37,141 bases of DNA. Source: Sphaeroforma arctica JP610. Its lineage: Eukaryota. Every line of letters starts with the position of its first letter. Positions within the stretch are counted from its first letter, which is position 1. Positions 263 to 37,062 of this stretch are shown here, piece by piece. A model generated the notes under the pieces. The model made no database searches and was not told where the DNA came from. It worked only from the letters and a program-made list of their open reading frames with translations. Made by a program: the position numbers and the translations under genes. Where the stretch lies: assembly GCF_001186125.1 (NCBI RefSeq), contig NW_014040466.1:1-37141 (forward strand). The letters run 5' to 3'.

Positions 263-670
263 AGGACCAATACGACGAACGATGTTGTGTTTCCAAGGTG
301 TCTTCTTAATAGAATAGGATCATTGATACAAGAACGTATCGATTACACGGTCGACATATATAGGCTCGTCTTGTATCATATTAATTAAATCACGTACCCA
401 TGGGTCGAAGCTGCGTAAGGGACAACAGAGCGTAAAGGTAGATTTAGTAACATTAATATAATTTAACAATTGTGCGATAAGTTGCCATGGTGGGTTAGCC
501 CACGCATTATGCTTTGATAAGTCAAGTTGAAGGGCATCACCTTTAGGATGAGTCAACGACCTATAATCAGAAACCTGTTTGTTATGTTCTGCGGCGAACA
601 TATCAATAGTAAATTGACCCCATCTTGATTGAGCGATGTTAAACCGTTTCTTATTAAGCATCCAATCGGT
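263..670 (-). pseudogene. Dam-like DNA N6-adenine methyltransferase domain of the Gypsy pol
   Basis: ORF 320..661 has the SAM-binding-like motif WGQFTIDMFAAEHN and catalytic NPPW (485-496). The frame continues past a TGA at 320-322 as SYSIKKTPWKHNIVRRIGP. Confidence 0.8.
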
Positions 671-699
671 TGCTAATAACTCTTTAACTGTTTTCTGGC

Positions 700-1081
700 A
701 GGGACAAGTCGACAGAGCATGTCAGGAAGATGATTATGTATTCTTGATATGTGTGTACTGTTAAAAGCGAACTTAGCAATAATGTCATGCCAGCGGCTCA
801 CCAACTGTGAATCAGGGTTCATGTCTTTTAAATATTGTTAAAGACTTTTGATCACAGGCGACAGTGAAGTAACTTACATAAAGGCAGTCTTTAAACTGTC
901 TTAGCGCAGTAACAACAGCAAAGAGCTCTTGTTTAACGGTAGGGTAATTCCGTTGACTCTTATTAAAACTCTTGCTAAATAATTGTATGTAGCGTGGTTT
1001 ACCATTTATCGTTTGGTATAACACTCCACCTACCGCTCGATCTGAAGCGTCGGTTGCTACTTGGAATGGGACGCCATCCAC
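700..1081 (-). pseudogene. Ty3/Gypsy-type RNase H
   Basis: FQVATDASDRAVGGVLYQ...QELFAVV...VACDQKSL. The C-terminal part LVSRWHDIIAKF...NHLPDMLCR is read at ~700-810. Confidence 0.9.
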
Positions 1082-1087
1082 AGGGTA

Positions 1088-1306
1088 TTACATGATGGGT
1101 GCGTCCATTACTTCACTTTTGACTAGCTTAAATGCATCATCACATTCTTTAGTCCAGAGCTTTCCCAAAGGTCCTTTGTGTAGCCATAGGTGACTGAAAG
1201 GCTTTAAGTAATGAGAAAGATGAGATACCGAATCCGAGAAGAAGTTAACAAACCCACACACAAAGTTCACATCTCTTCCAGTAATCGGTGTTGATGAATC
1301 CAACAT
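1088..1306 (-). pseudogene. RT thumb/connection region of the Gypsy pol
   Basis: DVNFVCGFVNFF...LKPF...WTKECDDAFKLVKSEVMDAPIM is a typical Ty3 RT-RNase H linker. Confidence 0.85.
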
Positions 1307-1309
1307 AAA

Positions 1310-2490
1310 TTATTTCTTGCCAGGATTAATTTCTACCCCTGCTGCAGATACCTTGTAACCAAGTAAGTGTATAGTATCTTTAGCATAAGAACACTTGTCC
1401 TCGTTAATCTTAAGTTTGGCATGGTTTAGTCGCTTTAAGACTTCCTTAACGAGTTTAGCATGTTCATGTGCTGTCTTTGTAAAGATAACTATATCATCTA
1501 AATATACTGATAAGTTATCCGAGAGGTCCGCAAATAGTTCCATCATAACTTGTTGGAAGAAAGAAGGTAACATGGGTAAGCTTTCAGGTGCACCTTTAAA
1601 CTGGTACTTTTTACCTTGCCAAGTAAAGGAAAAGTATTTCCTATGCGGCTCATACATTTGTAATTGATGGAATGCAGCTTTTAAGTCTACCTTGGAAAAG
1701 ATAGTCGCACCTTCCATTTTGCGTAGTATCTCGCTTATCTTTGATGAGGGAAAACTATGTTGCGGAATTAGTTTGTTGATTGGCGACAGGTCCAGTACTA
1801 CTCTTGTTTTACTAAATGTTTCATCATATTTATATTGATCGACCGCTAAGAGAGTTAAGTTAACTGGGGTTGCATCATAATTGATTTCAATTAGACCCTG
1901 TTTTATCCAATCTTCAATTTGGGTTTTGACAACGTCTTTGTGTCTCCAACTCACGTAGTTATGTGAAGGACACTTTAACTTAGAGAAGTCGACGTTTGTT
2001 AAGTCAAGCTTACCGTACCCGTTAGAGAACTTAAACATACACCAGTCGGTTATTGCAATCTTTCTGTTTTGTATAATTAAGTCCATAACTATATCGGTAA
2101 AGTGCGGAATCATATCCTTTGCTTCACTTTCCGAAGGTTTAGGTATCTCTAACATGTTATCATCTGACTGATATTTATTTGGGTCTAGCCCATTAGGCAG
2201 ACCAGTGAGAGTTATACTTAAACTGAGAAGATCAGTCATACCTATAATTAAAACGTATTTCTGAGACATGTCAGTAACGATTAGGTGATTATTTACTTCT
2301 CTTCTATCTGACAACGTTATATGTGCATAGTCAATGGCTTCTTCGCAAGTGGTAACTTTGCCATTTCCCAAGATTAAATCAGTTGTTTCGTTATGGACAG
2401 CCATATCTGTAGCGTAGGCTACACGGCGTGAGATAGCAGAGACCCTGGATAAAAAATGCTATAACTTTTTCTCCATTTATATAAACGGGT
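1310..2490 (-). pseudogene. Aspartic protease remnant plus reverse transcriptase
   Basis: Protease-like VYINGEKVIAF-(Y)PGS (catalytic D lost at a frameshift, ~2440-2490) and YVLIIGMTDL. RT motifs RVVLDL, FSKVDLKAAFHQ, YQF..AP, YLDDIVIF and HLLGY. Confidence 0.9.
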
Positions 2491-2569
2491 TGAAGTATAC
2501 GTTCATCTCCTTTGGTATAGATTATATTGAACTTTTTCTCATAATCTTGCTCTAGTGCACACATATGGA

Positions 2570-4567
2570 ACTGTCAGTGCTTAACCCGGACGTCCGGTAT
2601 GTCCTTGCAATCATCTTTGTGCCAACCGTTAGTACCCTTGCAAGTAGTACACTCTTACATATAGTGTCCAAAGTTTGGCTTGCCTGGTGCACACTTAACA
2701 GAGTCGTATTTACCATTCCACTTGCCATCACATTTATTGAGGTTGTAACCACACTTCTTGCAAGGTGCTCTCTCCTTCCTTTCACCCTTTGGTTTAGTAG
2801 AAGTAGAGCCTTTACCACCACCAGCAGTAGTGCGAGGTTTTAGTATTACGCGCAGTGTTATTCTCTAACGCGGAACGCTTAGCGGGCTGGGTAAAGCTTG
2901 CGGTACTAAGTACTCTAGTAGATGGGTTGGTATGCATTCGAACTATGTTCTCAGAGACAGACCAAGGCATAGATCTCAAATCACCATAGGCGATGATATC
3001 ATCATTGATCTCCTTAAACAGGTTAGCCCCCAGAGTCTCCTTCATCTGGCAAATAAATAGATATTCGCCAGTATAGGTACGACCTCCCACCCGAGTGTAC
3101 ATATGTGTCATATGAGCTAGAGCACCTCGAATAGTAGTATCGTTCGCAAAGGAGTTGCGAGACTCTAGAAGTTCACGGTCTCGTGCATCTTCAAAGAAGG
3201 CGATAAGTATATTCTCACGCAACTGGCGCCAGGGTAGGGCTTTCCAGTTGAGCTCATGGGCCTTAAAGATAGTTTTCCATTCCTCTGACTCACAGAAATG
3301 AATAAAGGCAATCATCATCTGCTTATCTTTAAGGCTGGCAGACTCCTTAAGTTGGTCAAAGGCCTTCAGTGTCTCCACTGTACTCCCATTAGAGAAATTG
3401 ACCTCAGCCTTCGCGTTACCTAGCTGCTTTATAAAGCTTGGTTCGAAGCGTTCACGAGGCTCACGCTCAGTGCTACGGGCTGCTAGTGCCAAGATGGAGT
3501 CTATCTCCTTTCTCTTGTTATCGATTAGATAGCGAATGCTATCCGCTTTCTTATCGTCAAGGTCAGAGTCATTCAATAGACGGTCCTCAAGGACTTGCAT
3601 ACCAGAACGTAATAGCCTGAGACGATGTTGTCTGGTTCTCACTTCCTCGTCTTCAGAGCTAGAGTGGGTACTCTCTAGTGAGGTACTGGTATAACGATTA
3701 CCAAAGTCGTTATTACCAGGGCTAGATTGTAAATGAGGATCGACGTTATGAGGGTGGTAAGCCTCATCGATTTCCATACAATCATAGCCTCTGACAGGGT
3801 TAGGTTTGTCGAGAGGATGGTCGATTGTAGCTTCCGAGCTATAGAGATTAAATCTTGAGGTTTTACCCACTTCACCAGCGTTAACTGGCACAGTGGTAAC
3901 CCTGCTGGCTGGTAAACCCGTGGATCCCAGGTTTGAAATAGAAAGAATATCGGCTACGTGGGATATGATCGAAGGGTCAGAAGCTTCGGCAGCGGCTAGC
4001 TCCTTTATAAGCTTATATTTGCGGTTCAAATGGCGTCGAGATTGAGAAGATCCAACCACTTGTTGTCGAGTTATGGCGTCCCCAACATTTGCATCTTCCG
4101 CCCCAACATTCAGTGGCGAGGCATTCAGTGGGGAGGCATTCAATGAAATTTCACGAAATGGAACGCCACCATCTTTGTTTAATAGGTGGATTGGGCTGAC
4201 TTTTAGTAGTAATAAACCGTCGATCTCGAGATGATTCTTCCACTTGTTCAGGAGATATAGCCTTTCCAATATCTGACTTTTCGTGGTCAGCTGGCGAGCT
4301 GAGGCCCTGAGCTGCACTACTAGGAGACACACGGACGCTGGCGAGCCTTTCCGCGGCAGTTGAGACCTCCACTTCCAAGGCTTTAGGGTCCGACGAGTCA
4401 TCCTCAGAGTTTTCTTCAGAACCAAGCTCAGAAACGGCTTCCTCTACAGCTTCAACGGCAGGCTCTAAACCAGACGGACCAGCGTCCCCAGTAATCTCAG
4501 GAACCTCAACAGGCTTAGCAGGCATAGAGCTGGCAGCTCCCTTGCCTTTATAATTACCTTTAACCAT
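2570..4567 (-). pseudogene. gag-like ORF (frameshifted)
   Basis: ORF 4151..4567 is the probable N-terminus, shifting into ORF 2812..4425 and then into a frame reading CKKCGYNLNKC...CTTCKGTNGWHKDDC (~2600-2765) just upstream of the protease. Confidence 0.65.
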
Positions 4568-5681
4568 ATTAATAGCTCAAGAATAGGAAAATTAATAAAG
4601 CCTAGGTATAGTAACTAGCGTGTAGCTAACTGTAGGGTAGTATATATTACTTACAGTCCTGTCGCTGGATAGTAGGCAATTGTTAGACAGTCTAGAAGCA
4701 GTACACTACGGTAACTACTAAATAACTGAAAAATATGTAAACTTCGATGGATATTTCTATGTTTTAAACTGTTATATAAACTTATGTCAGTTAGGATTTA
4801 GCAGTGGTAGCTTGTGTATGAATGATCCGGACTGCCTCTTGGTAAGAGCCTTAATATCCTCGATCACACAGGACATACCTCTAGCTGTCCTTTCTTGAAT
4901 AATTTTCACTAGAAGTACTAAGTGTTCATGACCACATGGCTAATTTGTAGATAGACATAAAAACGTAAGTCAAGTTAATACATTAGCTAATATAAATAAA
5001 GTTCCACCTGAAGAAAAGTTAAAAAAAGAAAAAGACTTATTGGATTTTGGAGATTGGCGGGAAGACCAAAACCTGTAAGTAGTAGTTCAGATATTATAAA
5101 ATTTAGTTTATAATATCCTACATCTACTATCGTCTCAAATAGGTACAAGTAAATGAGTCATACCAAATACTCAGGCTATTGGAGCCATCAAACATCAAAG
5201 TGAATTTAGAACACTTTGGAAATATTGGAAAAAGAATTTGTATTAAATTATTTTAAATACAAATAAAAACCAATGTGTTATCAAATTTGATCTTAATATA
5301 TTAGACTAACCGGAGGCCGTATTTCTACAGAGATATACAACGTTCACAAGATATTGACAGAACATACAGATCCCAGAGCAATCGACACCAAGCTCATGAA
5401 GGTAGACAGGGCAAAGCTATGTCAGCACAAGTATCTGATGACCAGTTACCTGCAAACAGACAGATTGCATTCTCCACAATTAACCCTACAATCGACAACA
5501 AGGAGGTGATTGGTCAGTCAGATAGAGATTCTAGAGGTGTATACTGACTAGCTTGCGATAGTTGCGCCACCATACACGTACTTCCCTATAAGTACCACAA
5601 ACATCATCTCGTCAGCAACATGCGCATCAATGACCGGTATGCGCTCGAAGTAGCTGATGGTCAATCATTTATCCGAAGTAT

Positions 5682-6671
5682 GTGGCTCAGCTAGGAGTCT
5701 TGGGGGACATACTCATTGATACGACATGTAAAACTGCACTACTACGTATCAGCCCACTCTCAGCGCGACACTACTCATTTGAATTCACCAACAACAGGAT
5801 GTACATATTACTACCAAGCTTCGGAACCATAACAGTACATGAAAAGCACAGAATATACTGTGTGCACATCGACGACATAGCTATGACTACAGTGGAACCA
5901 TCGCTGGAGAAAGCCAATCAGATTTCATGGCACAACAGGCTCGCGCACCCCAGCTACCTCTCAAAAAAATTACCCTACATAAGGCAACCAGAGGAACGAT
6001 GTAGAGCATGCACTATTGCTAAGAATAAGAACAAGAATACAAACAAGGAACGACAGCACGAACCTGCTATAGTGCCTCTCGAGTTAGTCTTCGTGGACAT
6101 AATAGGACCGTTCGTAACGTCAATAGGATCCAACACCCACTCTGTATCAATCATAGACGATTTTTCTGGCATTGCCAAAGAGTATCCGATCCGCGATCTG
6201 AAAGCGACAACAAATCTGGATGCTATGTTACACACCTTCGATGAATGGTACATCTTAAGTCATCGCCGAGTTCAGTCCATACAAATGGATCGAGGCTCAC
6301 AGTTTGCAGCAAACGTAACGAGGCGCATGCTTGCATATTTGGGATACTGCTCGAGGTACACACCTACGGCCACGCCACAATACCATGGCAAGGTAGAGAG
6401 ACTCCATGGTGCACTGGTTTCTAGAGTGCTTGCACAACTGAAATATGCACGTCTACCGACTACTATGTGGGCTGAATCACTGATTCAAACTACCAACATA
6501 TACAATGCTATATCCACCAACGAGAAGAGCTCATCCCCATACGAGAAGTTTACAGGATACGCATTTTCGATAGATATGTTCAAGAACTGTGATCCAGACG
6601 GCAAACTCGACGACAAAGCACTGGATGGCATTTTTCTTGCGCAACCCTTGGACACAACACCGGACTCGTAA
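5682..6671 (+). pseudogene. Copia GAG-pre-integrase zinc-binding domain and integrase core
   Basis: Uninterrupted WHNRLAHPSY...RCRACTIAK, followed by DDE motifs. Confidence 0.9.
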
Positions 6672-6732
6672 CGTATATACTCACCTCTGACCAAGCGTAT
6701 AATACAAAGCCGAGACGTCTATATATTCGAAG

Positions 6733-8816
6733 ATGAATTATTTGTCTGGGAAGACAACAAAATGGACAACCGCTATCGTACGACCTGACACTACGAACAG
6801 TAGTACATTCCTCCAAATCGAGAATGGCGACTTCCAAACGGACGCAAGGACAACATCGACAACGAAAGATATGCTTAGCCAACATGCCCAGCCAACTGTG
6901 ACGCACAAGTCGAGCAACTCAGAACAAGTACAAATAACTTCATCTTCAACACGACAACCTGCTGAGTGCGAAGTACATACCATCAAGTCGGAGGCTGCTG
7001 CAGCGACTACCAAAGCTCAACATGATCTCGAAGCAACCATAGCTAGAAGAACGGCAGAAGGTCGCCAAGTCTCTCGAAAACTGCGGGACTTTGCGATATA
7101 TGATAATAATGTCGACTGGTATCACGATATCCGCCGTAAGAGACGAACTCCTAGCACTACGCACACTGTCAATTCAGCAACTGCAGCAACGGAACCGAAA
7201 ACATACAAAGGTATATATGAGATGCCAAACACAGCCGATTGGGAGGAATCAGCACGTTCGGAGATGGAGAGCTTGGTGATACAGCGCAAGGCATTCACTC
7301 TAGTTGACAACAAACCGCGAGAGAAATCATTATTCCCCCCTCGATGGGTCTTCAAGGCAAAAACGGATGAATTAGGACAAGTCACACGACTCAAATCACA
7401 TCTGAAAGTAGCAGCATTCAACGCAAAATAGGGAGTCAATTACGATGAAAGCTGTGCCCCAGTAGTAGCCAAGGAAACACTCAGGATCTGTCTAGCTCTA
7501 ATGGCACACTATGACATGGACATTCGACAATACGATACACCCTCGGCATACCTCACTCAAGAACTGGATACCCCTAGCTACATGCGAGTGCCGCAAGGAT
7601 ACGATCTCATCGAACATCTATTGGTCCCGTCTCAGAGAAACCTATACGAAAGGCACAAGCAAGGAGACACAAAGGTAGTATGTCGAGCTGACCGTCGTGT
7701 ATACGGTCTACCACCTAGCGGACACTACTGGTTTAAAGCTATCCATCGGTTTGCTATACAACACATTTATAACCAAGTACAATCGGATGGAGCACTGTTC
7801 ATCAAACAAACACACAGTGGACCTTGTCTCATTATTATACACGTAGATGACAAAATTGCAGCATGCCAGTGTATGACCGACGGACAGAATGACGCAATGA
7901 AAGGCAAATGGAACACTGTTGATATGGGCCTACCGTTGTGGTTTCTCAAGTGCCAAGTGGAAATACTTTTTGGAAGAGTACGTCTCCATCAACGACAATA
8001 CTTAAGAGAAATATTGTAGGAATGGGGGTTGATAGATTGTAAACCAGCGTGGGTGCCAATTTTAGAATCGGACTATGAAGTAGCAGACAAACATGCATAT
8101 CTCCAGAAAAGGGCGGCAAGCTCAGACGTCCCAACAATCACACACTATAACAAGCTAGTGGGTCAGCTACGATACCTTGTAGTCAAACACGAGTGAATAT
8201 ATGCTTTGCAGTTTCGATCCTAAGTCGCTATCTGATAGCACCTCAGTACCACCACTTCAGAGGTGCCAAGCGCTGTTTGAAGTATCTCGCTGGTACTCAG
8301 GACTTCGGACTTGAATACACGAACAAAGAACCATGTATTTCCTATCTGAGTGCAGACAATAGCTTTGCTAGCGATGACACAAATAGACGATCCACCACCG
8401 GGCGAGTGGGCATTATAGCAGGTGCGCCATTCATATGGGGAACAAACTTGCAACGATTAGTAACAACGTCTACAGCAGAGGCAGCATACGTAGCACAATC
8501 TGATACAGCCAAAGACGCAGTATGGGCTAGGGATCTCTTCACAGAATTCGGCATTCCGCTCGTAGAACCCACCACCATAGAACAGGACACCAAGTCAGCA
8601 ATACTGATGGGAAATGGTATCACGAAATCCCGCCGTACAAAACATGTCGATCTACGATACCATCACATCAGGGAACTCACATCGAACAACACCATCAAGT
8701 TAAAATACATCCCATCAGAACAGCTACTCAGTGATTTCTTCACGAAGCCACTCAGCCGAGAGAAGTTTACCGACATACGCGACAGACTAATGACTCGGAT
8801 GCCAGTATCAACATAG
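6733..8816 (+). pseudogene. Copia reverse transcriptase and RNase H (broken by stops and frameshifts)
   Basis: ORFs 6733..7431, 7501..8019 and 8193..8816 carry Copia RT and Ty1-type RNase H motifs. Confidence 0.9.
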
Positions 8817-9816: not shown

Positions 9817-10319
9817 TGAGAGACTACAGGTCTCAGGCCATATTTTACAGCAAGAAATCATCTTTGATTTATGGAAGTCATCATAGTTAGCTCACTCCCG
9901 AGAGCTAATCAGGTTGCTCAAATTACTCTCAAGAGTTGAGTTATTATTTAACCGACTTCCGAGAGCAGATTAAGTTTCTGAACCGATTCCCGAGAGTGGA
10001 TTAAGCCTGTCAACCGCAACATATTAATAATAGCTGTGGTTATATGTGAGTCACAACCTATGCGGAAAGGCATCATGTGATCAGCGTAAGATTTGGTTGC
10101 AGAGAAGTAGAAATAGAAAAGCATCGAAGTGTTAAAGTGTTCCGCATAAGGTTTCTCATAATGGCCATATGAGTTTTTACTCTGGCCAGCCCAAGAGGCT
10201 GAACACTAGCACAAACACCTTAGATATAAAACCAAAGGTGAGTTCAGAAATAAATACATAAATTTGCACTTTATTTAAAGTCTACTGCATTGCACTCTAA
10301 CAGAATACACTGTGTCTCA
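9817..10319 (+). repeat. LTR, probably the 3' LTR of the upstream Copia
   Basis: Polypurine tract GAAGGGGAG (9808-9816) directly precedes TGAGAGAC, and the segment ends ...GTGTCTCA. TATAAAA at ~10225 and AATAAA at ~10248. Homology to the inverted copy at 19017-19446 starts exactly at this TG. Confidence 0.75.
9894..10015 (+). repeat. 30-31 bp tandem repeat (4 copies) inside the LTR
   Basis: ACTCCCGAGAG-like core at 9894, 9925, 9955 and 9986. Confidence 0.8.
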
Positions 10320-10329
10320 CCACTCTTCG

Positions 10330-11400
10330 ACAGATGCTCCGCTGATCAACCGATGTCAAACCGCGAAGTACACCTTGGTACCTCCGTCCTCCTTCACGGA
10401 CCTCCCGATGGTGTATGCGGCGTTGGAACAACTCCAACTCCAGTCGATCCACGGTCAGGTGTCAGTTCCGACGGCGCTATAAGTCAACTGGGTCCTCCAT
10501 GACCGGTACAGTCATCTCTTGCCCGATAGGCTCCGTCGACTCCTCCAGGTTAAGTGTTCCTGGAACGTTCCTGTCGCACTGCTCCGACCAGTTCTGGCCA
10601 CTTGTGATGACTGTATATGTACTATGGGCGGAAACAGGGACTGCTCCAGCAATCTGCCAGGAAATCAATCTGGATTATACACATGTCGATCAATGAAGAT
10701 GGAGAGGGATTTAATCAGGTACTTGCTGCACAGGATAGGTTCTCCCTCCGAGCATTCGGTACATGTGGCCGATTTGATGAGCACACCGCCTCGCAGTTGA
10801 TCCGGTTTTGCGTTGAGTACTTACGACCCAGGGGCCATGTCCAACGTTATGTCTTGGATAAGGACAGTTCCATGCGCAGTGATGCGTTTACGGCATACGC
10901 AGCAGCAAATACTGCTGTGGTACATTACGTTTCCACGGGCAAACATGCCGGCAACGACCGCATAGAGGTCTCCTTACGTATCCTCAAGACATGGTTTAAG
11001 CGGTCCCTTTCAGTAGGCCTGCACCACACATGGCGCTCCCAAGTTCCGATTTTCTTCGCGAATTACAACGCGACATGGTCAAGCGTTATTGACACGGCCC
11101 CGTACACTTTGGTTACGGGCCGCATCTACCCTCGTCCATCAGACCCGGTAATAACGGCCCTACTTGATGCGGATGCGACCGCCTCGAGTTTCGAAGCTAA
11201 GGTGGAGGAACCGCCTCTAGATCGGGGCCTCCTTGCACTCCGCGCAAAAGGTCACGGCGGGCCGCCAGATCTTATATTGGCCCATGGCGGACCCACCGCA
11301 CAAATTGGCGAAGGACTGGCTGGGCCCGGTGATTGTAACGACCCATGTCCCTCCGGTGATGCACTATATCAAGGACACGACCCTCAATAAAGAGTAGCGT
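10330..11400 (+). pseudogene. Ty3/Gypsy integrase fragment (HHCC, DDE core, GPY/F motif)
   Basis: LHDRYSH...W...ATCDDC; QEINLDYTHV; VLAAQDRFS; LDKDSSM; GNDRIEV; then HKLAKDWLGPVIV in another frame at ~11290-11340. Confidence 0.85.
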
Positions 11401-14670: not shown

Positions 14671-14840
14671 TCTAGAGGGTTGGCTTGATATATTGCGCTT
14701 TTACAGCTAATGGTAAAACCCATGATATATACACCGCTGTAAAGCTGAGAAAATATCTAGAGGTTTGGCTTGATATATTGCACTTTTACAGCTAATGGTT
14801 AACCCCATAATGTATACAGAGTTGTAAAGCTGAGAAGATA
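14671..14840. repeat. 85-bp tandem duplication (2 copies)
   Basis: TCTAGAGG.TTGGCTTGATATATTGC... starts at 14671 and 14756. Confidence 0.9.
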
Positions 14841-15322: not shown

Positions 15323-15342
15323 NNNNNNNNNNNNNNNNNNNN
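15323..15342. other. Assembly gap
   Basis: Run of 20 N. Confidence 1.
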
Positions 15343-19016: not shown

Positions 19017-19446
19017 TGTGAATCCTACATTTAATCCATATACCATAAGTTCCAATATTAGAGCGTAGAATAGTAAATTTATATTTAATGTAAATTTATA
19101 TATTTATTTCTGGTTTCACCATTTGTTTTATATCTACGGTGTTTGTAATAGTGTTCAGCCACTTGGATTGGCCAGGGTGGAAACGCACATAGGGAATATA
19201 AGAAACCTTCAGAACACTTTTACACTTCGATAATGTGCATGTAGATATAATAATTTACCCAAATTGAAATGAATAACATCATCCCTATTCTATTTCGACT
19301 TCTCTGTTAGTTGATATGCTCGTGTTGTTGGTCGAGAGTGAGTTAAGAAACTTATTCGACTCTTGGGAGTGAGTCAATTCAAATGATTTCAATGGATCAG
19401 AGTGTTAACTTGTTGTGAAAGCTGGTCTGACACCTGTAGACTCTCA
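19017..19446 (-). repeat. Solo LTR related to 9817-10319
   Basis: The reverse complement aligns by eye with 9817-9930 and ~10100-10300. Termini TGAGAGTCTACA...TGTAGGATTCACA. No clean TSD (TAAGT / AAAAT). Confidence 0.75.
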
Positions 19447-23528: not shown

Positions 23529-23536
23529 GCGCGGTC

Positions 23537-25242: not shown

Positions 25243-27479
25243 TCTACACTTACACATCATGCATATATGTGTGCATGCATGGACAATAATAATAATAATA
25301 TAGGTAATTTTTTTCAATATATTCAGAAAAACCTAAATTTTAAAATTTATAGTTATTGATTGGAGTTGACTAAATTATTTTGATTTAATTGGCTTAAAAT
25401 ATGTCACTTTTTTCCCAAAAAAAAAATCGTATGTAAAAACTTATCAATATTCGATTTTGCCCAATCGGGCTAAATATAGCGCCCAATAGGGCGGGAGGGG
25501 CGGTAGGATAGACACTAGGTGTCACTAAAGGTCAACAAAAGGTATAACCTGGGTAAAAGTTCTCAACCTGTCACAGTGATAAAAGTATCATTGTTGGGGA
25601 TTACAAAATTTGTGGAAAAGTGTCACTGGTGACAACTTCTTTAATGTTGGAGGCTACAAGCTTCCATGGGTCTGGTCATCAATCAAAAATAATACTAGTC
25701 ACCGCAGTGACGAAACACAGTAGAACACGCACTAATCACATTGCCTAGCACACCATAGACAGAAGCATACACCCTCACAATTAGAAGAGGTCAGAACAAC
25801 AAGACACATTGAAATCACGAGATACATTGAAATCGCAAGGCACAATATATATACAAGACATCAAATAAACTAAGAATCGTCTAGAACAGTATTAAGCAAT
25901 AAGGCACATCACAAATTATTGACAGCTACAAGCGAAATCACAGAATCTCTAGAAGCATCAGCACACAATTAAAGCAAGCATCATAGGCATCGAGTCATAG
26001 AAGCTAGCAGAAACACGCCATAAAAAAATATGAATAATAATATCACAAGTCATAAAACCAGGTCTACAAGAGTGCGATCGAACACCTAGAACATATAGTT
26101 GCTTGGTTAAAAAGACATTTCAGCATCCAAACTCCATGGATGGCTATAAGACACAAAAGATACCACATCTAAACCCCATAGATGCCATAACATTCTTAAT
26201 AATAACCGATACCAGACATAAACAGTAAGCACGATCAATATATCAGGCTAAAGAACACTAGAAAGCTAAATCAGATATAAATGACATGGAATAACAGCCT
26301 AATCGCATAAGAATGGGTATAGCTGTCATTAAGAGGTAATATACAGACAAGCATAAGCATTGACAGCTCACTCAAATATCTACAACCTGGATATAAGAAA
26401 GGGTGCACAAGAAAGATACAAAATAGCCTAGTAATCCAACTAGATCCACACACCATCAAATTCAAGCACACACACAGAGAAGTACAGTGATTAGAACCCT
26501 CAACGACAGAGGACGACACAAGAACACGTGATATCCACCAATAACCAAGTCCCACCCAGGGACATAAAACAAGCTATATGTGCAAGATTGCGTATTCACA
26601 TAATAACACAGCGCAAAGGATAGAACAAAGACAAGCAAGCCATCACTTAGGAGCTATACACAAAAACATATCACTTGAATAAAGCACATACACATAATTA
26701 AGAGGAATATATCAGAAGGAAATACAGAACAAGGGCGATCACAAAAGACAAACACAGCACAAGCAATGGACTCCACGTTATAACAAATTCCCAACAGCAG
26801 GGACTACACACATACGTCCACGTTCCAGACCTTCCACACAGGACTTCATAGGTCATAAACTCCACATGAATCTCATGAACATCACATGAAGAAGTACAGA
26901 AGTCACGAGAGGCACTATAACAACAACGACACACCCTCGAAGTATACAATAGTGAATAACAACATCCAGAATCAGAACCAAGAACAACATTTGTTGTTCC
27001 AGACTTTACACACACAGATACGCTAAGGTTCACCGCACACGCGATACAGAAGCACATAACATTCTGACATAACAAAAGAGGGTGCACTAGCCACCACAGA
27101 TTTTATAGAAACTCAACGAAAATTTGCCAGAAGTGCGGTACTAGAAAATAACACAGATTTACAACAAAAAACCCAATAAACCTCAATCCAAGGTTACGAA
27201 AACGATAAACCGAGTTCACACACTGAACCTAGTTTATACTATATAAACCAACATAAACCAAAGTTTATCTCCTCAAACCAAAAAGTCTCCAAATATCCCA
27301 GATATCAAAAGACAGCCAAATTCAAGCCAATCAAGCACAAGGACTCACAGTCAACACAGCCGCCAGACATCACAGAGGGCACACCAATACAGGTAATTAA
27401 CCACATGTGACCCAGAGGGTATATTGACAAAGGAGTGACACATTTCAGGTCAAGGAAGAACAGATAAACTCTAACAGAA

Positions 27480-28375
27480 TTGCGTCATTATCAATACACA
27501 GAACAGTCAATGACTTCTTTTCCTTATCAAATGACACGTGCAGCACGACGGAGCCTACGTACACAAGTAAGCTCAAGCAGAACACAGACAAGAGGCAGTA
27601 CAAGTCGTACAACCAGAACACGACCAGAAACAGCACCCACAATGCCAGTTTCTCAAGCATCTTCATGCACCTCTACCCCACACAATGGGGATGGAGGGAT
27701 GCGCATGGATGATGAGCCCAAACCAGCCAGAGCTCCATTGGATCCAGCGATGAGTAAGTACAGAATAGTCTTGGGCAAGACCATCTATGAGGGGAACTTC
27801 TACATCGTAGATATATTAGTAGACAAGTTGTATGCACAAACAGCGGACGATCCCATTGACATGATAGCACTCCACAAAGTCCGCAAAGCAGTCCATGACC
27901 AACAGCCCAATAGATTGATACCAGTAATAGACCAGTGGTTGCCAGAGCTATACAATAAAGCTATGAAGAACTGTGATAAAAGTAATCACGATGAGTGCAT
28001 TGCGATCATTGGCTGTATGAGCGACTTAACTCTAATTAGATCTCACGAAGGAGACAAAATCGCAGAACTAGAAATGGTTAAGTTACTCAAGATGAGTGAG
28101 TTCACTAAGTGGCCAGCAGGCAAGTATGTCAGCATGGCTGATTGTCGTGATACAATTGAGTTTGTATCTGTAGCCAAAGACTTGTTCGCGAGCACAAGCA
28201 TGCCATTGGTACAGTACATATCACTAGTACAAGAGCTGCTCAGACAGACAGACAGACGCAACAGAGGTATCGCGCACTGCACTCAATAATATACGTAGTA
28301 CCAAACAGCTTTGGAAAGACTTCACTTATGTGGAAGACTACAATATATTAAACATTGACAACCTGCGTCGCACTC
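27480..28375 (+). pseudogene. Probable retrotransposon gag remnant after a long A/C-rich leader
   Basis: 269-aa ORF with a basic Ser/Thr/Arg N-terminus. A shifted frame from ~28279 reads ALNNIRSTKQLWKDF, resembling the Copia gag I...TA.ELW motif. No pol follows. Confidence 0.35.
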
Positions 28376-29885: not shown

Positions 29886-30071
29886 TGTTGGAACATATAT
29901 TATATATTTGCTTAATGAAGTAAGTTTATTATTATATTGCGTATTGGCTATATATTATATAACTACCATGTGCCTTTTAAAGATATTGTTACAATAACAT
30001 GAACCGTAATATATTTTGAGCTCATAGGGTTTTTAGGGTTTGAATTTGAGTCTTATAAATTTGTCTCAACA
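29886..30071 (-). repeat. 3' LTR (186 bp) of the second Copia
   Basis: On the - strand, PPT AAGGAGAG (30079-30072) is followed by TGTTGAGAC...GTTCCAACA (canonical TGTTG...CAACA ends), with internal TATA-like and AATAAA motifs. Confidence 0.85.
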
Positions 30072-30769
30072 CTCTCCTTAATTTGGAAGCGAAAGGACAG
30101 TGTATGTAAATAATTTTTATATGTGTTAGGTACCCTAGGGTAGTGATAGCAACATATAGGCTGGCTCTCCTCAAACTGGATTGAGGCTGGAATAATTGTA
30201 AAAAGAAAAAGGGGATGGGACAATGGGCTGAGGCAGAAGATGATGGGCCGGTAAAATTGGGTTGACAGCAAATTGGAGGAATATTAAAAATTTCGAGGTG
30301 GGGTCTGGGGCCGAAGGCGTTGGGGGCGAGCGTGGACTGGGAGGACGATGCAGAAAAAATGTTGAAGGGAGGAGAAGTCTCGGTGGTGGTCGACCAATCG
30401 GGTGCTGTGCACGTTGTGTGCGTATGTGTATAAGTATGTTTGTGTAGTATAGGGTAACGATGTTACAGTTAGTGGGTCTAGAGCAAGCTGGTGTCTAGAT
30501 GGATAGTAGTGCATATATATACAGCAAGGAGGCGGATGAATCAAATCAGAGGGTGGATGGCGGTGAGCATCGATCGGGTGGATCTCTCCTGAAGGCATGG
30601 ACGATGTTGTAAGTTAGGCTGCATAACAGAGATAGCAGACACGGTATAGTGTGTTGGTAATGTGTGTATGGTTGTTATCGGACGTATATGCAAATGCTGC
30701 AACAAGGGATGATTGATCAGGGTCGGGAATGTCGGTGAGTGTGTTAGATGTATGTTTTGTTTGGGTGGG

Positions 30770-32260
30770 TCGTGGAAGGTTTTTGGTCAAGGTGTCTGCG
30801 ATGTTATCGGCAGTGTCAAAATACTTGGTAGCAATGACACCTTGGTTCTGGAGGTCACGAATATGGTGAACGCAAATATCGACGTGCTTCAGCTGCTTGG
30901 GAGTGCGCGTGTTGGTAATGACATGTGCGGCGGATTGGTTATCGCAGTAGAGATCAGCGGAGGCATCGGGGGTATTGCCGAGTTCAGTTAATAAATTGCG
31001 GAGCCATTGTAGGAGTTTAGCGGCTTCACTGGCAGCAAAGTATTCGGCTTAAGCAGTGCTAGTACTGACAGTCTTTTGGCGTTTACTTTTCCAAATCACT
31101 GGTGTGCCACACACGTGAAAGACGTAGCCGATGGTGGAACGACGGGTAGTGAGGCAGCTGGCATCAGCGTAGGCGTCAGTGGAAAGGGGTTGGGGCGTTT
31201 GACTGTACGTGAGGCCAAGTGTGGAGTTGGTTCGGATAAAGTGGAGGACTCAACAAACAGTGAGCCAGTGGTCTGCGCTAGGGTTGGAAAGAAAGCGGGA
31301 GATATTGTTGACCGAAGGTAATATCGATGCGCGTTAGGATAGAGAGGTAAAGGAGGGTGCCAACGAGTTCTCGGTAGGGGCAGGCAAAGGGAGGGCCTTC
31401 ATGTTATACGAGCGGGGCAGTCTGAAGGGGGTTGTTGACAGGATGAGTTGTAGGGATGTCAAAGTGCTCGAGGGCCTCATGAATGTACGAGGTCTGGACG
31501 ATGCTGGTGGAATCAGCGTTAGTGATAATGCGATAGCCGAGGAGCCAGGTGGGTTCGCCGAGGACGGAGCAGTCGAATTACGATAGAAGCTGTGCTTTGA
31601 ATTTTTCAAACATCGGCTGGAGTGAAACCACGTATGATTAGGTCGTCGACGTAAATCATTGTATGAGGGTGTGCGGATGGTAAACATACATCGGTATGTA
31701 TGTGCCTGGTAGAATCCGAATTGAAGTAGCTTAGACTGGATAAGAGAGAACCAAAGCTTGCCGGATTGTTTGAGACCGTAAAGCGATTTCTTGAGCTCAA
31801 GGGTGGTGACCTTAGAGATGCCTATTTGGTCGGAGCCAGCGCGTGGTTCATAAAAAGAGGATGACCAAGGTCAGCGTTGAGAAATGTGGTGTTGGCGTCC
31901 ATCTGCTCTGTCTGCCAACCCTTGTTGGCAGCGAAAGCGAGAAGCGTGCGGAGGGATTCATGGGTGCAGGTGGGCGCATACGTCTCCGTGAAGTTAATAT
32001 CCTTGGTTTGCGTGAAGTCAAGGGAAACGAGGCGAGCTTTATATTTGTCAACGATTCCATTGTCTATCTTGATTTTGAAGACCCATTTGGACGTTACATT
32101 GAGGACGTCTGCAGGAAGGTCGGTCTTGTCGCGAATGACGAAAGTGCCAGTCTTGCGAAGGCTGTTCATTTTGGACTCGATGGCTGCGGGCCAGAGATCG
32201 GCTTTGGGGCTGTTGAGGGCCTGTTTGATAAAGGTAGGGGTGATCGGTTGGTTCTGGACA
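30770..32260 (-). pseudogene. Copia RT and RNase H fragments
   Basis: PTFIKQAL...SKWVFKIK...KARLV...TETYAP...QMDANTTFLNA, MIYVDDLII and KHVDICVHHIR. Confidence 0.85.
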
Positions 32261-32757
32261 GCCTCGCAGAGTGCGTGAACGTGAGAGCAAACGGCATTGT
32301 ATTTTCGTTGGTCCGAGAGTTGCTTGCGGGTAAAGTGAGGGCGGTACTTGTCAGGACCCGGGAGATCAGATATGTGTGGGGTATCGTGCGAGTCGTCGAT
32401 GAGGAGGTTGCGGAGCTCGCGGTTATGGGAACGTTTGGCAAGGTGGTGCTGTAGCTTGTCGTTGTGTGACCCCAGGATACGGGATTGGTCGTGACGAGCT
32501 GTATAGGTTTGTAGAAGTTTGGCCTGTTGCTGAGTCTGGAAATCCGCGGTGCTGGTGCGACCTTTGAGGGCACGGCGGTCAGTAGAGGATTGGGTGGTCG
32601 GGTGGGCGATAGGGTCACGGGCGGTACGAAGCAGGATCTGAAGATCTTCAGGGGGAGAGTCAGTTGCGGTGAGGGGAGACGGAAGTGGGGGGCTGGGGAG
32701 GTCACATAGGGGGGGGGTGCAGAATCGACGACGGAACACGGCGGAGAGTTCTAAGGG

Positions 32758-33582
32758 TCACAGGTCTCGGGCGGTGGCAGGAAGGTCAAGGTGGCGGGCG
32801 GGTTCACGACGGCAGGCAGGGTATCGTGATATGTGGCGACAATAGAGAGAATAGGGCTTGGACCTAGAACTGACGTTGTGACATAAGGGGAAGATGCCCT
32901 CATTGAATGGAACGTGGCGGGAAGTCACGGTGGGACCAGTGTCGACGTTGAGCATGCGATATTCGTCGGCGTGCGTAGAGAAGTGGTCATACGCGATGAG
33001 GATGCCAACTCGACATTTGGGACAGAGTCTGTCGGTGTTGCCGTGATCATAACTGAGGGTCATGCAGCCATACACGCGAAGGGCTTTGACGAAAGCAGTA
33101 ATGGGGCGACCAAAGAATGCTTCGTAAGGGCTGATGTGGGATGCATGGGATTTGGCTTCGGCCCACATGTGGGAGGGTCGGAGAGCCTGGGCGACCATGC
33201 AAAATGCAATGTTCATGTTGGTCTGGTGTCCACGTTCGACACCACCGTGTTTGACGGAGTCGCCAGTGGGGTTGTAGAGGATCTGTACATGGGCGAGGTG
33301 GATAGCGCGTTTAAATTCGGTTGCAACAAATTCACCACCACGGTCGGCGATGATGGTGCGTAGGCGATCGCGCCCCTGTGCTTCAATATAGGTGTAAAAA
33401 CGATCGAGGACAAGGTGGGCATCGCTTTTGACACGAAGGTGCTCTTGGTACTCGAGGCCTGTACGGCGTTCAAAGAAACGGATAGTGTGTGCATGGCCAC
33501 CATATCTCTGTTCAAATTTGGCTTCAAGATCGACCTGCCATTTAGCGCCAATGGCAGGGAGGGTTCGGGACTTGTCCCTAAC
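32758..33582 (-). pseudogene. Copia integrase core and SH3-like tail
   Basis: Same frame as 33583..34386 after a single TAA: KWQVDLE...IIADRGGEF...GGVERGH...MWAEA...PYEAFFG...LRVYGC. Confidence 0.88.
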
Positions 33583-33705
33583 TTAGAGTTTGTGCATTTC
33601 GCCAGTGGCACAGGATACGCAGGAGCATGCTAGGGACCCCGTGTGGAGGAGACTGATGTCGATGGTAGTTTGGAGTGCTGCAGGAATGGGTACGGCTTGA
33701 GCCGT

Positions 33706-34134
33706 AGGACCGAAGATAGCGACACCAGTGTATAGCCAGTTGGGAGTGGTGACAAAGTCTTGAGTTCCGTCGGGTTGGCGTCGGAGGAACGTATGCGGAA
33801 AGGAAGGGATAATTTCGACGTGTAACTGAAGGTGAGCCATGAGTTTGCGCCACCATGCTGCTTTACGCTTGACGGGGAAGAACCAAATCATGCGGCCTTG
33901 GTCGGTATCGCGCGGGGAATCTTTCCAGGGAGGTTTGTCATAGAGGCGCTTGGTGGGCTGGCGCCAGTGCTGTTTGTATGCGTCGTGAAGGGAAGTGGCT
34001 TTGTCTGTGTGGTCAAGGGTGCAATAGGTAGGGACCTGGTGGTTGTACTTATTAGCGAACATGTCGATGTCAACGGAGCCGAAGACCTGCGTGACGTGTT
34101 TGTCAAATAGTGTGGGGTGAAGTCGGTAGTCGTC
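33706..34134 (-). pseudogene. Dam-like N6-adenine methyltransferase domain inside the Copia pol
   Basis: DDYRLHPTLF...FGSVDIDMFANKYNHQVPTY...HDAY..HW...LYDKPPW...WWRKL...HTFL...PNW...IFGP is collinear with the 263-670 domain. The catalytic motif reads KPPW (33925-33936). Confidence 0.75.
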
Positions 34135-34765
34135 GCAGTAGGTCAGCGGCGGAGGGGTAGGGATTTTGTGGGTGTGGGCGATGGCTTTAGTCGCGCGGGT
34201 GGATTGGTGCCCAAAGCGGGGATGATGGAGGTTGAGACTGTCAGTCTGGAAGGCATTCAGGTGGTAGCGCCCGGCAGATTTGTCGATGGCTTTGACGGAG
34301 GTGCCATCGCATGTGACAAGGCATTGGGCGAGAATGCTGGGAGCGGGAGTTTTAGGAAAGAAGATACTGTAACCGTTGCGTTGCATATTGCATACGGAGA
34401 GGATAGGCTGGCTGGCGTCGGGGAGAACGCGGGCAGGGCCGAGACCGGGAATGGTGCCACGGGTAGGGGCGGTGACGAAGGATCCGCCGACGAGCTCAAT
34501 GACGAATTGACCATGTTCGACGTCGAGGAGTGTGTAAGCGGAGGTGATGATTGAAATGTCGGCATCGGAGTCGATAAGAGCAGTGGCTATGACAGATTAG
34601 TAGTTGGGTTCGGCACGGAGTATAAGGGTAGTGCACCGGTTCGATGGTGGGGCCAGCCGGGTGGGGAACTGGTTGTGGATGTGTGGCTGCGTGAGGAATC
34701 CCGTGGCTTCAGGCACGGCGGCTGGCGGTGGTAGTGTGACCAGTGGAATTGGGGTAGTTATTACA

Positions 34766-35524
34766 TTAAAGAGAATCAGGGAGAGTACATTGGGTGCCTG
34801 TAAGGGATGAGTCGCAGCAGCGGCGACAGTTGGTGGAATGCCAGTTATAGGCGCCGTGGCCAGGCTTCTGGCAGGCGAAGCAGTTGCCGGAGGGGTCTTT
34901 ACCGAGTGGGATACGGCGGGGACGTTGGGTAGGTGTAGGGGAAGGAGTGTGGTGGGAGGCACTGGCGACGCCATAGTTGCTGCTAGTGCTTAAAATGACC
35001 TTAATATTGGTGGCATAATTGCGCATTTCAGAAACGATGGCATCGAGGGTGTATGTGTGGTCAGTTGCGCCCATAACGTCCTGGGCAATGATTTCGAATC
35101 CATCAGGAAGGGATTGCAGTAGGCTGCACACGTGATAAAATTCTGGTATGTCAGCATGTGAGGTCTTTGAACTGGTCGCGAAGGAGATGGACTTTGGCGA
35201 TGCTGTCATCCAGGGAGGGCTGCTTGGGGAGGGTAACGAGTTGAACGAGGAGTTCATATATGCGGCCGATGGTGACGAAGTTGAAGTCGTTACAGAGGCG
35301 GCGATAGAACGCGAGAGGTCTTTGGTCGAGATAAGTGTCGTATTGTTCTGGGAGGCCGTTGCCGAGTAACTCAAATAAGATGGTGGTGCCAACGGTCTTC
35401 TCGCAGGAGTCAACAGCAGAGGCAGGGTGCATAGGGTGGACGATGTCATGTTTCTTAAGATTGTGTTTGAGTTGACGACGCCAGTTGGTAAAATTGTCGT
35501 CCCCAGTAAGCTTCGTAGCAGCAT
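34766..35524 (-). pseudogene. Copia gag with zinc knuckle
   Basis: CSLLQSLPDGFEII...LDAIVSEM and CFACQKPGHGAYNWHSTNC, frameshifted. Confidence 0.75.
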
Positions 35525-36708
35525 ATTTACTGGAATACTTGAAGGGTACTGGCTAGACTGTCAGGGATTTTGGGCATCTGATGGTAGTCGTGGTGGGGAG
35601 TGCCAAGGAGTGGGGAGTCCGATCAAGATCGAGGCGGGGTGAACAAGGGGATAGATGGGAAGCGTTGTTCAAGCTTGCGGATCTTGCTGCTTTGGGCTAC
35701 CTGCAGCTGTTGACTGAAACTATGGGAATCAGATGCAACAAGTTACGCCTGAAGGGTAGTGAGTTCGTCAGGGAGCTGTGTGGCGGCAGTGGCGAGGACC
35801 TCGTTTTCTGTGAGGGCGTCCTGTAAAAGTCGTGCATGTTCGTGTGGTTGTAGGGTGAGGTTGGCGCGTTATGCGTTGCGATCTGTGCGCAAGCGTTGTA
35901 TGTCAGCTTCAGCAAGGGCGTAGGGTTTACGGAGGGTGGTGCGGTAGCTTCAAGGTGAGTGTCAGGGCATGCAGTGAATTGTTCCTGAGCTTGAATGAGT
36001 TTGAATCGTGCCTCTTCACGTTCCTCAAAGTAAGTGTCGTGTTTATGGCGGATGCGGGCGAGGTCGTTTTGTAATGTGGTGTGTCCGGTGTGTGGCTGTG
36101 TAGGTATTGATGTCTTGTATGCGTGTAAGATTGCAATGAAGATAATTGACGTTAACCAGATTCAGCTGTTTGATGTACCGTGTATCCAGTGAAGCGATCA
36201 TAATCGATCCCAAAAAGGTAGAGCATCTATTAGATTGGAGAACACTCACCGCAGGCTAAGGATGTAAACAGCATGTGTGATATTGTCAACTTTCTGTTGG
36301 GTGGAGGTCCTTACTTAGTAAGTTACCTCAAACACTTTGGACACATAGATCAGCCACCAAAGGATGGGTTATCATTTATGGTGGCAAGCGACGCATCCAA
36401 AATGGCACTGGGGGATTTACTGTATCAGATGACTGACGGGAAATCGAGATATATGTAGTTCTTCAGCAGGGCCATGAACTTGTCACAAATCAACTACCAA
36501 ACAGTGCAATATAAGCTTCTATTCTATGTGAATGCACTCATTCATTCTTACACTATACATATATGATACTCATCTTAATACTATGCGATCAGAATTCATT
36601 GGAACACTTAAAAGATATAAAACTCAACTGACAGTTTGTCAGTCGGTGGCATGATACCGTCACAAATTCCCCCGTTGGCATAAAGCATATTCAGGGTATT
36701 CCCAATAG

Positions 36709-36911
36709 CTAACCGGATATAATGACACGCTTTATCCCGGATTTCAGCAGGATTATTTGTAAGCTTTTAGTTACCTATTGGGAGGGCAATCCTAGATAAC
36801 TTAAGATGACAGACTAACCGGTATGATGTCACGCTTTGTCCCGGACTTCCACAGCATTGTTTGAAAGTTTACCTATTGGAAGGCCAATCCTAGATGATTT
36901 AAGATAACAGA
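36709..36911. repeat. ~100-bp imperfect tandem duplication at the RNase H/MTase junction
   Basis: CTAACCGG...CACGCTTT.TCCCGGA...TTACCTATTGG...CAATCCTAGAT starts at 36709 and 36814. Confidence 0.85.
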
Positions 36912-37062
36912 TAATTTCTATGGACCACATGCCATAGATATGGTTGCAGCTCAACATAATGCGCAACTACCGTATTATCAAACTCTTGAACATCCCGAAG
37001 GTGATGTATTTCATTTAACTTGACCGATGAGAACGCAAGGCCAAATCCACCGATACTGTAAT
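36870..37062 (+). pseudogene. Third Dam-like methyltransferase remnant (not in the ORF track)
   Basis: TYWKANPR*FKITDNFYGPHAIDMVAAQHNAQLPYYQTLEHPEGDVFHL, then after a frameshift LTDENARPNPP (AATCCACCG at 37044-37052). Confidence 0.75.

What the first reader, a model, noticed from the sequence alone, without database searches (positions are those of the whole stretch)
263..37062. One MTase family shared across Gypsy and Copia in the same genome: possible retrotransposon-encoded 6mA system
Seen: three homologous MTase domains within 37 kb share D(W/Y)xL..., G..xIDM(F/V)A...N.Q...Y..L.H...D and (N/K)PP; the two longer ones also share W..xL...TFL...PW/PNW...GP. They sit in two superfamilies at two polyprotein positions. 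Established: 6mA marks transcriptionally active chromatin in several unicellular eukaryotes (ciliates, Chlamydomonas, early-diverging fungi). Inference: recurrent capture or inter-element exchange of an adenine MTase, possibly to mimic active-gene marks, evade silencing or protect cDNA.
Basis: inference. Interest (0 to 1): 0.85.

Follow-up and report, generated by a model that had tools for sequence, protein, structure and literature searches.

The report
Copia integrase with embedded adenine methyltransferase
A decayed Copia-type jumping gene carries an adenine-methyltransferase domain inserted inside the zinc finger of its integrase, a layout repeated in diverged relatives from the protist Sphaeroforma arctica and not found in the papers searched, and it likely helps new copies acquire an "active gene" mark; the two Gypsy-type neighbours with such a domain are an already published kind.

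Summary
Three Dam-like domains are real. Two follow RNase H in decayed Ty3/Gypsy copies whose intact relatives read PR-RT-RH-Dam-integrase: the DAM-LTR kind of bioRxiv 10.64898/2026.05.21.726589. This scan also noted it earlier in other genomes.

The third lies in a Ty1/Copia element, in frame between the His-His and Cys-Cys halves of the integrase zinc finger. The gap is 195 residues, against 17 in the window's MTase-less Copia. Five Sphaeroforma arctica proteins carry a related domain; four show Copia context, and one, at 29% identity, keeps a 194-residue gap. So this is an old, conserved lineage, not a nested DIRS fragment. The preprint's main text never mentions Copia (it classified by RVT_1), and no paper or earlier scan note on Copia-Dam turned up.

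'One family exchanged between Gypsy and Copia' is not shown. The two are 29% identical, no closer than to DIRS-type domains, and not sisters in the tree, though a joint clade is not rejected (p=0.36).

Activity is untested. None of 4 readable Copia motifs is intact NPP, and published E. coli assays of such domains were negative. Verdict: new variant of a known kind.

The parts
1313..4576 (-). Gypsy copy 1: gag region (two ORFs), aspartic protease and reverse transcriptase, broken by frameshifts and stops
   Evidence: RVT_1 E 1.5e-27; 80% identity to intact polyprotein P0048 over 2449-122
815..1087 (-). Gypsy copy 1: Ty3/Gypsy-type RNase H
   Evidence: RT_RNaseH E 1.3e-23
278..670 (-). Gypsy copy 1: Dam-like domain directly after RNase H, motif NPPW; a stop at 320-322 cuts off its last strand; the integrase would lie beyond the window edge
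   Evidence: Pfam Dam E 2.6e-8; profile 82.1 bits; P0048 and P0049 continue into an rve integrase
5658..8816 (+). MTase-less Copia (control): His-to-CxxC gap of 17 residues, rve, RVT_2, RNase H-like ORF
30065..30079 (-). Probable polypurine tract and TG start of the 3' LTR of the Copia-Dam element; no matching 5' LTR found
   Evidence: read from the sequence, with a composition shift at about 30100; inference
30617..32757 (-). Copia-Dam element: reverse transcriptase (Copia type) and RNase H-like ORF, broken
   Evidence: RVT_2 E 3.5e-21 and 8e-6; RNase H read from motifs only
32761..33582 (-). Copia-Dam element: integrase core and SH3-like domain, same frame as the protease-Dam ORF, one stop codon (33583-33585) between them
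   Evidence: rve E 0.0014, SH3_retrovirus E 3.5e-8; frame and stop
33610..33621 (-). CxxC half of the integrase HHCC zinc finger, after the Dam domain
   Evidence: P0004 has CxxC at the same spacing (194 against 195)
33706..34137 (-). Dam-like N6-adenine methyltransferase domain inserted in the integrase zinc finger; motif IV reads KPPW
   Evidence: profile 86.2 bits; model pLDDT 87; fold matches phage Dam, E 1.4e-7, and PCIF1; only E 0.05 against Pfam Dam
34207..34224 (-). His-x4-His half of the integrase zinc finger (HPRFGH), before the Dam domain
   Evidence: relatives read HARFGH, HDRLGH, HRSEGH
34240..34596 (-). Copia aspartic protease, in the same open frame as His-His, Dam and CxxC
   Evidence: 51% identity to P0001, 34% to P0004; protease identity read from the DS(G/D) motif and position, no Pfam hit
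34600..36161 (-). Copia gag region with zinc knuckle, broken
   Evidence: weak Retrotran_gag_4 and DUF4219 hits, E 0.05-0.09; tblastn to P0001 and P0007; the 35700-36161 part is assigned from its C-rich composition only
36170..37062 (+). Gypsy copy 2: end of RT, RNase H and truncated Dam-like domain (about 36877-37052, NPP at 37044-37052 in a shifted frame), with an internal duplication of about 105 nt
   Evidence: tblastn to P0049, E 3e-43 and 2.6e-15

Best explanation
The Copia element carries a DIRS-type Dam-like domain in frame inside the HHCC zinc finger of its integrase, so the mature integrase would carry a methyltransferase that likely marks the element's own cDNA or new insertion with 6mA. 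Shown: the architecture, its recurrence in diverged S. arctica Copia-type proteins, the fold, and conservation of the domain. Inferred: (1) the protease cuts upstream of the zinc finger, as in other Copia elements (recalled), leaving a Dam-integrase fusion in the particle and integration complex; (2) it deposits N6-methyladenine on the RNA-DNA hybrid, cDNA or integration site; (3) host AMT1 maintains the mark and keeps the copy in permissive chromatin, the model proposed for Gypsy DAM-LTRs in the preprint. The Copia capture was most likely separate from the local Gypsy capture (about 65%). The two Gypsy copies are ordinary decayed DAM-LTRs. Confidence in the architecture is about 0.9; the number given is for the writer mechanism.
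For: One open frame runs protease-HH-Dam-CxxC, and the integrase follows in the same frame after one stop. Third-codon-position C is 0.48 in Dam against 0.42-0.58 in the other four Copia domains and 0.19-0.20 in the Gypsy. The top 5 of 46 phmmer hits are S. arctica proteins: P0001 PR-HH-Dam at 56%; P0003 protease tail-WHDRLGH-Dam-rve; P0004 PR-HH-Dam-CxxC at 29% with a gap of 194; P0002 with the second His and Dam; P0005 Dam only. Against P0003 the Dam N-half is 56% identical and the integrase core 34%. Five Copia Dam rows form a clade at 98/86, six at 61/94. The model (pLDDT 87) matches phage N6-adenine MTases. Asn of motif IV is kept in 3 of 4 readable Copia motifs, and also in P0003's raw sequence. 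Gypsy relatives P0048 and P0049: Dam 68% identical, against RT 60, RH 77, integrase core 58 and linker 30. The preprint reports more 6mA and expression on DAM-LTRs in S. arctica.
Against: None of 4 readable Copia motifs is an intact NPP (KPPW, NQP, NPIW, NIPF), against 35 of 39 in the other rows; P0048 reads CPPW. No intact full-length Copia-Dam polyprotein was found, and RVT_2 next to Dam is seen only in the window copy. Heterologous eukaryotic DAMs gave no 6mA in E. coli. Iyer et al. judged DIRS MTases likely inactive. The best solved-structure match is the RNA cap enzyme PCIF1, at E 1.5e-3. No relatives were found outside S. arctica. No methylation data could be examined.
Confidence: 0.45

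Rival explanations
1. The domain is a non-catalytic reader or tether on the integrase. It binds adenine, 6mA-marked DNA or the element's nucleic acid and steers integration or packaging, as the MBD of arthropod CopiaMBD elements or the chromovirus chromodomain does.
For: Motif IV varies across the Copia rows while the N-half is well kept. It sits on the integrase, where targeting modules act. The E. coli assay was negative, and Iyer et al. regard DIRS MTases as likely inactive binders. CopiaMBD is a precedent for a Copia with a targeting reader.
Against: All Copia sequences seen are decayed copies or broken gene models, so the motif changes may postdate insertion. The Asn is mostly kept. N(L/I)PY motifs are active in KsgA/Erm enzymes (recalled, not from a call). 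NPPW is intact in window copy 1 and P0049.
Confidence: 0.3
2. The domain is an RNA methyltransferase of the PCIF1 type that modifies the element's transcript (cap-adjacent or internal adenine) to help its stability, translation or packaging.
For: The top three distinct PDB entries include human and zebrafish PCIF1 (ranks 1, 2 and 5; TM by query 0.52-0.55), with KsgA/Dim1 RNA enzymes next. Iyer et al. place DIRS MTases in the PCIF1 clade. It would explain the negative DNA assay.
Against: Predicted phage Dam proteins match better (E 1.4e-7, TM 0.64) than viral PCIF1-like ones (E 5.6e-4). A place inside the integrase zinc finger suits DNA. PCIF1's cap-binding helical domain is absent (157 residues against about 490).
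Confidence: 0.15
3. Origin rival: the Copia took the domain from the co-resident Gypsy DAM-LTR, or the reverse, by inter-element exchange in this host lineage.
For: Both occur in one 37 kb window. The AU test does not reject a joint clade (p=0.36). In the quick tree P0004 fell in a 7-row group with the Gypsy rows (96).
Against: Identity is no higher than to unrelated DIRS-type domains (29 against 28-30%). The careful tree does not join them. P0048 and P0049 were not among the 46 phmmer hits of the Copia ORF. The alignment is only 146 columns, deep nodes are unresolved, and the comparison rows are biased towards Copia-like sequences.
Confidence: 0.3
4. A one-off nested DIRS fragment or an assembly chimera, with no function.
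For: The window is a graveyard of nested, broken elements, and the Copia copy has many stops.
Against: The same junction recurs in proteins at 29-56% identity, with near-identical spacing. Codon composition matches the host element. No tyrosine recombinase was found in 147 of 147 ORFs of at least 68 aa scanned.
Confidence: 0.04

Closest known systems
DAM-LTR retrotransposons, ichthyosporean lineage (Fernandez-Moreno et al., bioRxiv 10.64898/2026.05.21.726589; whole main text read, supplement not seen)
   Same: LTR element with a DIRS-type Dam domain. The two Gypsy copies fit it directly (PR-RT-RH-Dam-integrase, no chromodomain hit in P0048 or P0049). The paper names S. arctica as a host.
   Different: The paper describes Ty3/Gypsy-like carriers classified by RVT_1; 'copia' and 'Ty1' occur 0 times. 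Here a Ty1/Copia (RVT_2, integrase before RT) carries the domain inside the integrase zinc finger, detached from RNase H.
DIRS1-type tyrosine-recombinase retrotransposons (MT domain; PMC3783388, passages read)
   Same: Same domain family and motifs; the RH-MT junction is as in the Gypsy copies.
   Different: DIRS lack an aspartic protease and DDE integrase and have a tyrosine recombinase; here the reverse holds.
CopiaMBD of centipede and spider (PMC6673714, passages read)
   Same: A Copia lineage that captured and conserves a DNA-methylation-related domain.
   Different: MBD is a 5mC reader that steers insertion to methylated DNA; here it is an adenine-MTase fold. I did not see from the text where the MBD sits in the polyprotein.
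PCIF1/CAPAM cap adenosine N6-methyltransferase and phage Dam (PF05869)
   Same: Fold and NPP-aromatic motif type.
   Different: Only a core of about 145 residues, 14-23% identical; substrate untested.

Membership tests
Ty1/Copia (element 30065-36161) | Domain order gag-PR-integrase-RT-RH | tested here: met
   rve and SH3 upstream of RVT_2 on the coding strand
Ty1/Copia (element 30065-36161) | Copia-type RT (RVT_2) | tested here: met
   E 3.5e-21
Ty1/Copia (element 30065-36161) | Pair of LTRs with target-site duplication | tested here: inconclusive
   No direct repeat pair; a probable PPT and 3' LTR start is present; a Gypsy fragment abuts the 5' end
Ty3/Gypsy DAM-LTR (copies 1 and 2) | RVT_1 and Gypsy-type RNase H followed by Dam | tested here: met
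Ty3/Gypsy DAM-LTR (copies 1 and 2) | Protease and DDE integrase in the same pol | tested here: met
   Shown on intact relatives: P0048 (80% identical to copy 1) has protease and rve hits, P0049 has rve. The integrase of the window copies lies off the edge or is lost.
Ichthyosporean DAM-LTR clade of the preprint | Placement in their Dam and RT trees | not testable with these tools
   Their sequences are in closed supplements; the host is inferred only from S. arctica top hits of the Copia ORF
DAM-LTR as published (for the Copia element) | RVT_1 / Ty3-Gypsy-like organisation | tested here: not met
   RVT_2 and Copia order; it may work like a DAM-LTR but lies outside the five described lineages
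DIRS1 | Tyrosine recombinase; no protease, no DDE integrase | tested here: not met
   No recombinase hit in 147 of 147 ORFs scanned; protease and rve present
Dam-like N6-adenine MTase (PF05869 type) | Fold and profile match | tested here: met
Dam-like N6-adenine MTase (PF05869 type) | Intact NPP-aromatic motif IV | tested here: inconclusive
   Gypsy: NPPW, CPPW, NPPW. Copia: KPPW, NQP, NPIW, NIPF, all from decayed copies
Dam-like N6-adenine MTase (PF05869 type) | Methyl transfer to DNA adenine | not testable with these tools
   The published E. coli assay of related domains was negative

The most novel reading that the evidence does not exclude
An ichthyosporean Copia lineage independently built a methyltransferase into the zinc finger of its integrase, making a fused integrase-adenine methyltransferase that stamps (or reads) 6mA at the moment of integration. 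This would show that the DIRS-type domain acts through the integration complex rather than with RNase H, and it extends DAM capture to a second LTR superfamily.
Probability: 0.35. Interest if true: 0.8.

Novelty: new variant of a known kind. Interest (0 to 1): 0.6.

Why it matters
The role of the DIRS-type methyltransferase domain is an open question: it is conserved across eukaryotes, yet no activity has been shown. In DIRS and in these Gypsy elements it follows RNase H, so its partner is ambiguous. In this Copia it sits inside the integrase's own zinc finger, which points to the integration complex and names a specific protein to test. S. arctica is culturable, already has published nanopore 6mA data, and holds Copia-type proteins with the domain; the window also holds a Copia without it. 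If the window's host is S. arctica or close to it (inferred), that gives an internal comparison and an independent replicate of the DAM-LTR hypothesis. It also shows that an RVT_1-based survey misses a class of carriers; some of the preprint's 46% 'orphan' DAMs may be these.

Tried and rejected
No whole genome is held, so the genome-wide survey could not be run; other DNA copies, reads and expression were not examined.

Word-index searches with the Copia ORF found nothing (47 and 866 candidates), even though P0001 lies in the length range, so those blanks are weak. Scans of metagenome contigs and viral contigs found no confirmed locus.

ESM Atlas gave no usable hit for the window ORF. For P0004 it gave only lead-level hits under 0.9, among them Pol_BBD and gag_pre-integrase clusters.

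A model of the whole PR-HH-Dam-CC region (P0004) had mean pLDDT 47, so whether the split zinc finger closes around the insert is undecided. A PDB sequence search found 0 matches. VIA-align fold searches never ran.

ApT and GATC observed/expected values show no pattern that separates Dam-bearing from Dam-less elements (ApT 0.88, 1.02, 1.21 against 1.06), which is uninformative. No LTR pair was found, so the copies could not be dated.

Rejected: 'DIRS misread as Gypsy' and 'nested fragment'.

Left out of the tree: P0007 (no Dam), P0020 (internal duplication), P0047 and P0050 (cluster mates), and window copy 3 (too short). P0003 was cut after residue 154, where its gene model leaves the domain. 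The bootstrap had not converged (0.953).
Full report
OBSERVATION. The window is a cluster of decayed transposons. Pfam scans of 20 and then 127 ORFs, together all 147 stop-to-stop ORFs of at least 68 aa without N, gave a Gypsy-type element at the left end, a Copia at 5.6-8.8 kb, a DDE_Tnp_1_7 transposase, a second Copia at 30-36 kb and a Gypsy RNase H at the right end. No tyrosine recombinase was found. A six-frame motif scan found the three methyltransferase-like stretches. A profile of 39 other Dam domains scores them 82.1 (278-670, -), 86.2 (33721-34134, -) and 15.6 bits (36877-36999, +); the best decoy scored 0.2 in 20 sets. Those 39 rows were themselves found with the Copia ORF, so the test is not fully independent for that copy. 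The third domain follows an RNase H of the same lineage as the first (tblastx E 4e-37) and is truncated just after a frameshifted NPP.

THE GYPSY COPIES. RT-RH-MT is also the DIRS order, so I tested this. A search with the two Gypsy domains returned 2 proteins among 159 candidates, P0048 and P0049. Both are intact polyproteins with RVT_1, RNase H, Dam and an rve integrase, and P0048 also has protease hits. P0048 is 80% identical to window copy 1 over 779 columns; P0049 is the better match to copy 2. DIRS are defined by lacking protease and DDE integrase (PMC3783388, passages), so these are Ty3/Gypsy. Between P0048 and P0049 the Dam domain is 68% identical, against RT 60, RNase H 77, integrase core 58 and the following linker 30, which shows constraint. 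In 40 Dam codons shared by the two window copies, differences by codon position are 19, 9 and 26. This is the DAM-LTR kind of bioRxiv 10.64898/2026.05.21.726589 (whole main text read; supplement not seen). That paper names an ichthyosporean lineage in Pirum, Abeoforma and Sphaeroforma arctica, reports more 6mA and expression on such elements, proposes the mimicry model, and found no activity when the domains were expressed in E. coli. Earlier notes of this scan describe Gypsy-Dam elements in other genomes.

THE COPIA ELEMENT. One open frame (33586-34596, -) holds a protease, the His-x4-His half of the integrase zinc finger, the Dam domain and then CxxC. The integrase core follows in the same frame after one stop, then RVT_2 and an RNase H-like ORF. 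The His-to-CxxC gap is 195 residues, against 17 in the window's MTase-less Copia and 30 in P0048 and P0049. The insert has the element's own C-rich codon pattern (third-position C 0.48 against 0.42-0.58; Gypsy 0.19-0.20). An exhaustive phmmer search gave 46 hits at E up to 0.001. The top five are S. arctica proteins:
- P0001: protease-HH-Dam, 56% identical.
- P0002: second His plus Dam.
- P0003: protease tail, WHDRLGH, Dam, rve.
- P0004: protease-HH-Dam-CxxC, 29% identical, gap 194.
- P0005: Dam only.
Hit 7 (P0007, also S. arctica) matches the protease only. The other 40 match in the Dam region, many with RVT_1 or RNase H, and none of the 46 had an RVT_2 hit. So the layout is shared by families that diverged long ago and is not a one-off nesting or misassembly. 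Against P0003 the Dam N-half is 56% identical while the integrase core is 34%. Limits: no intact full-length Copia-Dam protein was found; no DNA context for the S. arctica proteins was available; and nothing was found in metagenome or viral contigs. The host is probably Sphaeroforma or a near relative, by inference from these hits only.

FOLD AND ACTIVE SITE. The Copia domain models at pLDDT 87. Its best matches are predicted phage N6-adenine methyltransferases (E 1.4e-7, TM 0.64; 17 matches at E up to 0.001, including viral PCIF1-like proteins). In the PDB the best match is human PCIF1 (E 1.5e-3; none under 0.001). Motif IV is NPP in 35 of 39 outside rows; NPPW, CPPW and NPPW in the three Gypsy rows; and KPPW, NQP, NPIW and NIPF in the four Copia rows where it is readable. 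All four come from decayed copies or broken gene models, so decay and a shifted function cannot be told apart. A model of the whole region was too poor (pLDDT 47) to show whether the zinc finger closes.

ONE FAMILY? Mean identities are 29% Copia-Gypsy, 30% Copia-other, 28% Gypsy-other and 33% other-other. In the careful tree (49 rows, 146 columns, bootstrap not converged), five Copia rows form a clade at 98/86, six at 61/94, and the Gypsy rows at 100/100. The two groups are not sisters. Forcing them together costs 5.9 log-likelihood units and is not rejected (AU p=0.36). In the quick tree, long-branched P0004 grouped near the Gypsy rows. Exchange within the host is thus neither shown nor excluded. 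I put separate captures at about 65%.

MECHANISM. Shown: architecture, recurrence, constraint, fold. Inferred: because the domain lies between the zinc ligands of the integrase N-terminal domain, it would stay on the mature integrase and reach the cDNA ends and target DNA. The most likely role (about 45%) is to write 6mA there for host AMT1 to maintain, as proposed for Gypsy DAM-LTRs. Rivals are a non-catalytic reader or tether (30%), with CopiaMBD as precedent (PMC6673714, passages) and the view that DIRS domains are likely inactive (PMC4738411, passages), and a PCIF1-like RNA enzyme (15%).

NOVELTY. The preprint's main text holds 'copia' and 'Ty1' 0 times and classifies by RVT_1. Nine paper searches (listings only, except for the four papers cited) showed no report of a Copia with this domain. 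The library lacks most subscription journals, and the preprint's supplement may list such elements. Earlier-findings look-ups showed no Copia-Dam note. Verdict: Gypsy half already known; Copia half a new variant of a known kind, with an unusual insertion site that makes the domain's role testable. Interest 0.6.

Noticed in passing
window 15568-16274 (+): Decayed integrase fragment 36-41% identical to the linker-integrase region of the Gypsy-Dam polyprotein P0048; possibly a third remnant of that lineage. A short inverted match links 30-112 with 15552-15633.
   Followed up: partly
window 22365-25242 (+): DNA transposon remnant with DDE_Tnp_1_7 hits and a C-terminal cysteine-rich tail, piggyBac-like (the name is recalled).
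   Followed up: no
window 10483-11900 (+): Integrase-like ORF read by eye (D..D..E-type motifs) with no Pfam hit; 10123-10268 has an 81% inverted match at 19089-19231.
   Followed up: no
window 27468-28289 (+): 273-aa ORF with no Pfam hit, next to a strongly A-skewed stretch (26-28 kb); possibly a gag of another element.
   Followed up: no
window 34134-34137 (-) and P0004 residues 186-189: A lone Cys directly precedes the Dam domain (CDDY in the window, CNDY in P0001 and P0002, CEAW in P0004) at about the spacing of a normal zinc-finger CxxC, as if the domain entered at the first Cys and a full CxxC was kept downstream.
   Followed up: partly
proteins P0013, P0034, P0037, P0043: Dam-like domains next to a chromodomain, an endonuclease domain (LINE-like) or an SH3 integrase tail in unnamed records: further polyprotein positions for this domain.
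   Followed up: no
window 36709-36914 (+): Tandem duplication of about 105 nt (80% identity) at the RNase H-Dam junction of Gypsy copy 2.
   Followed up: no
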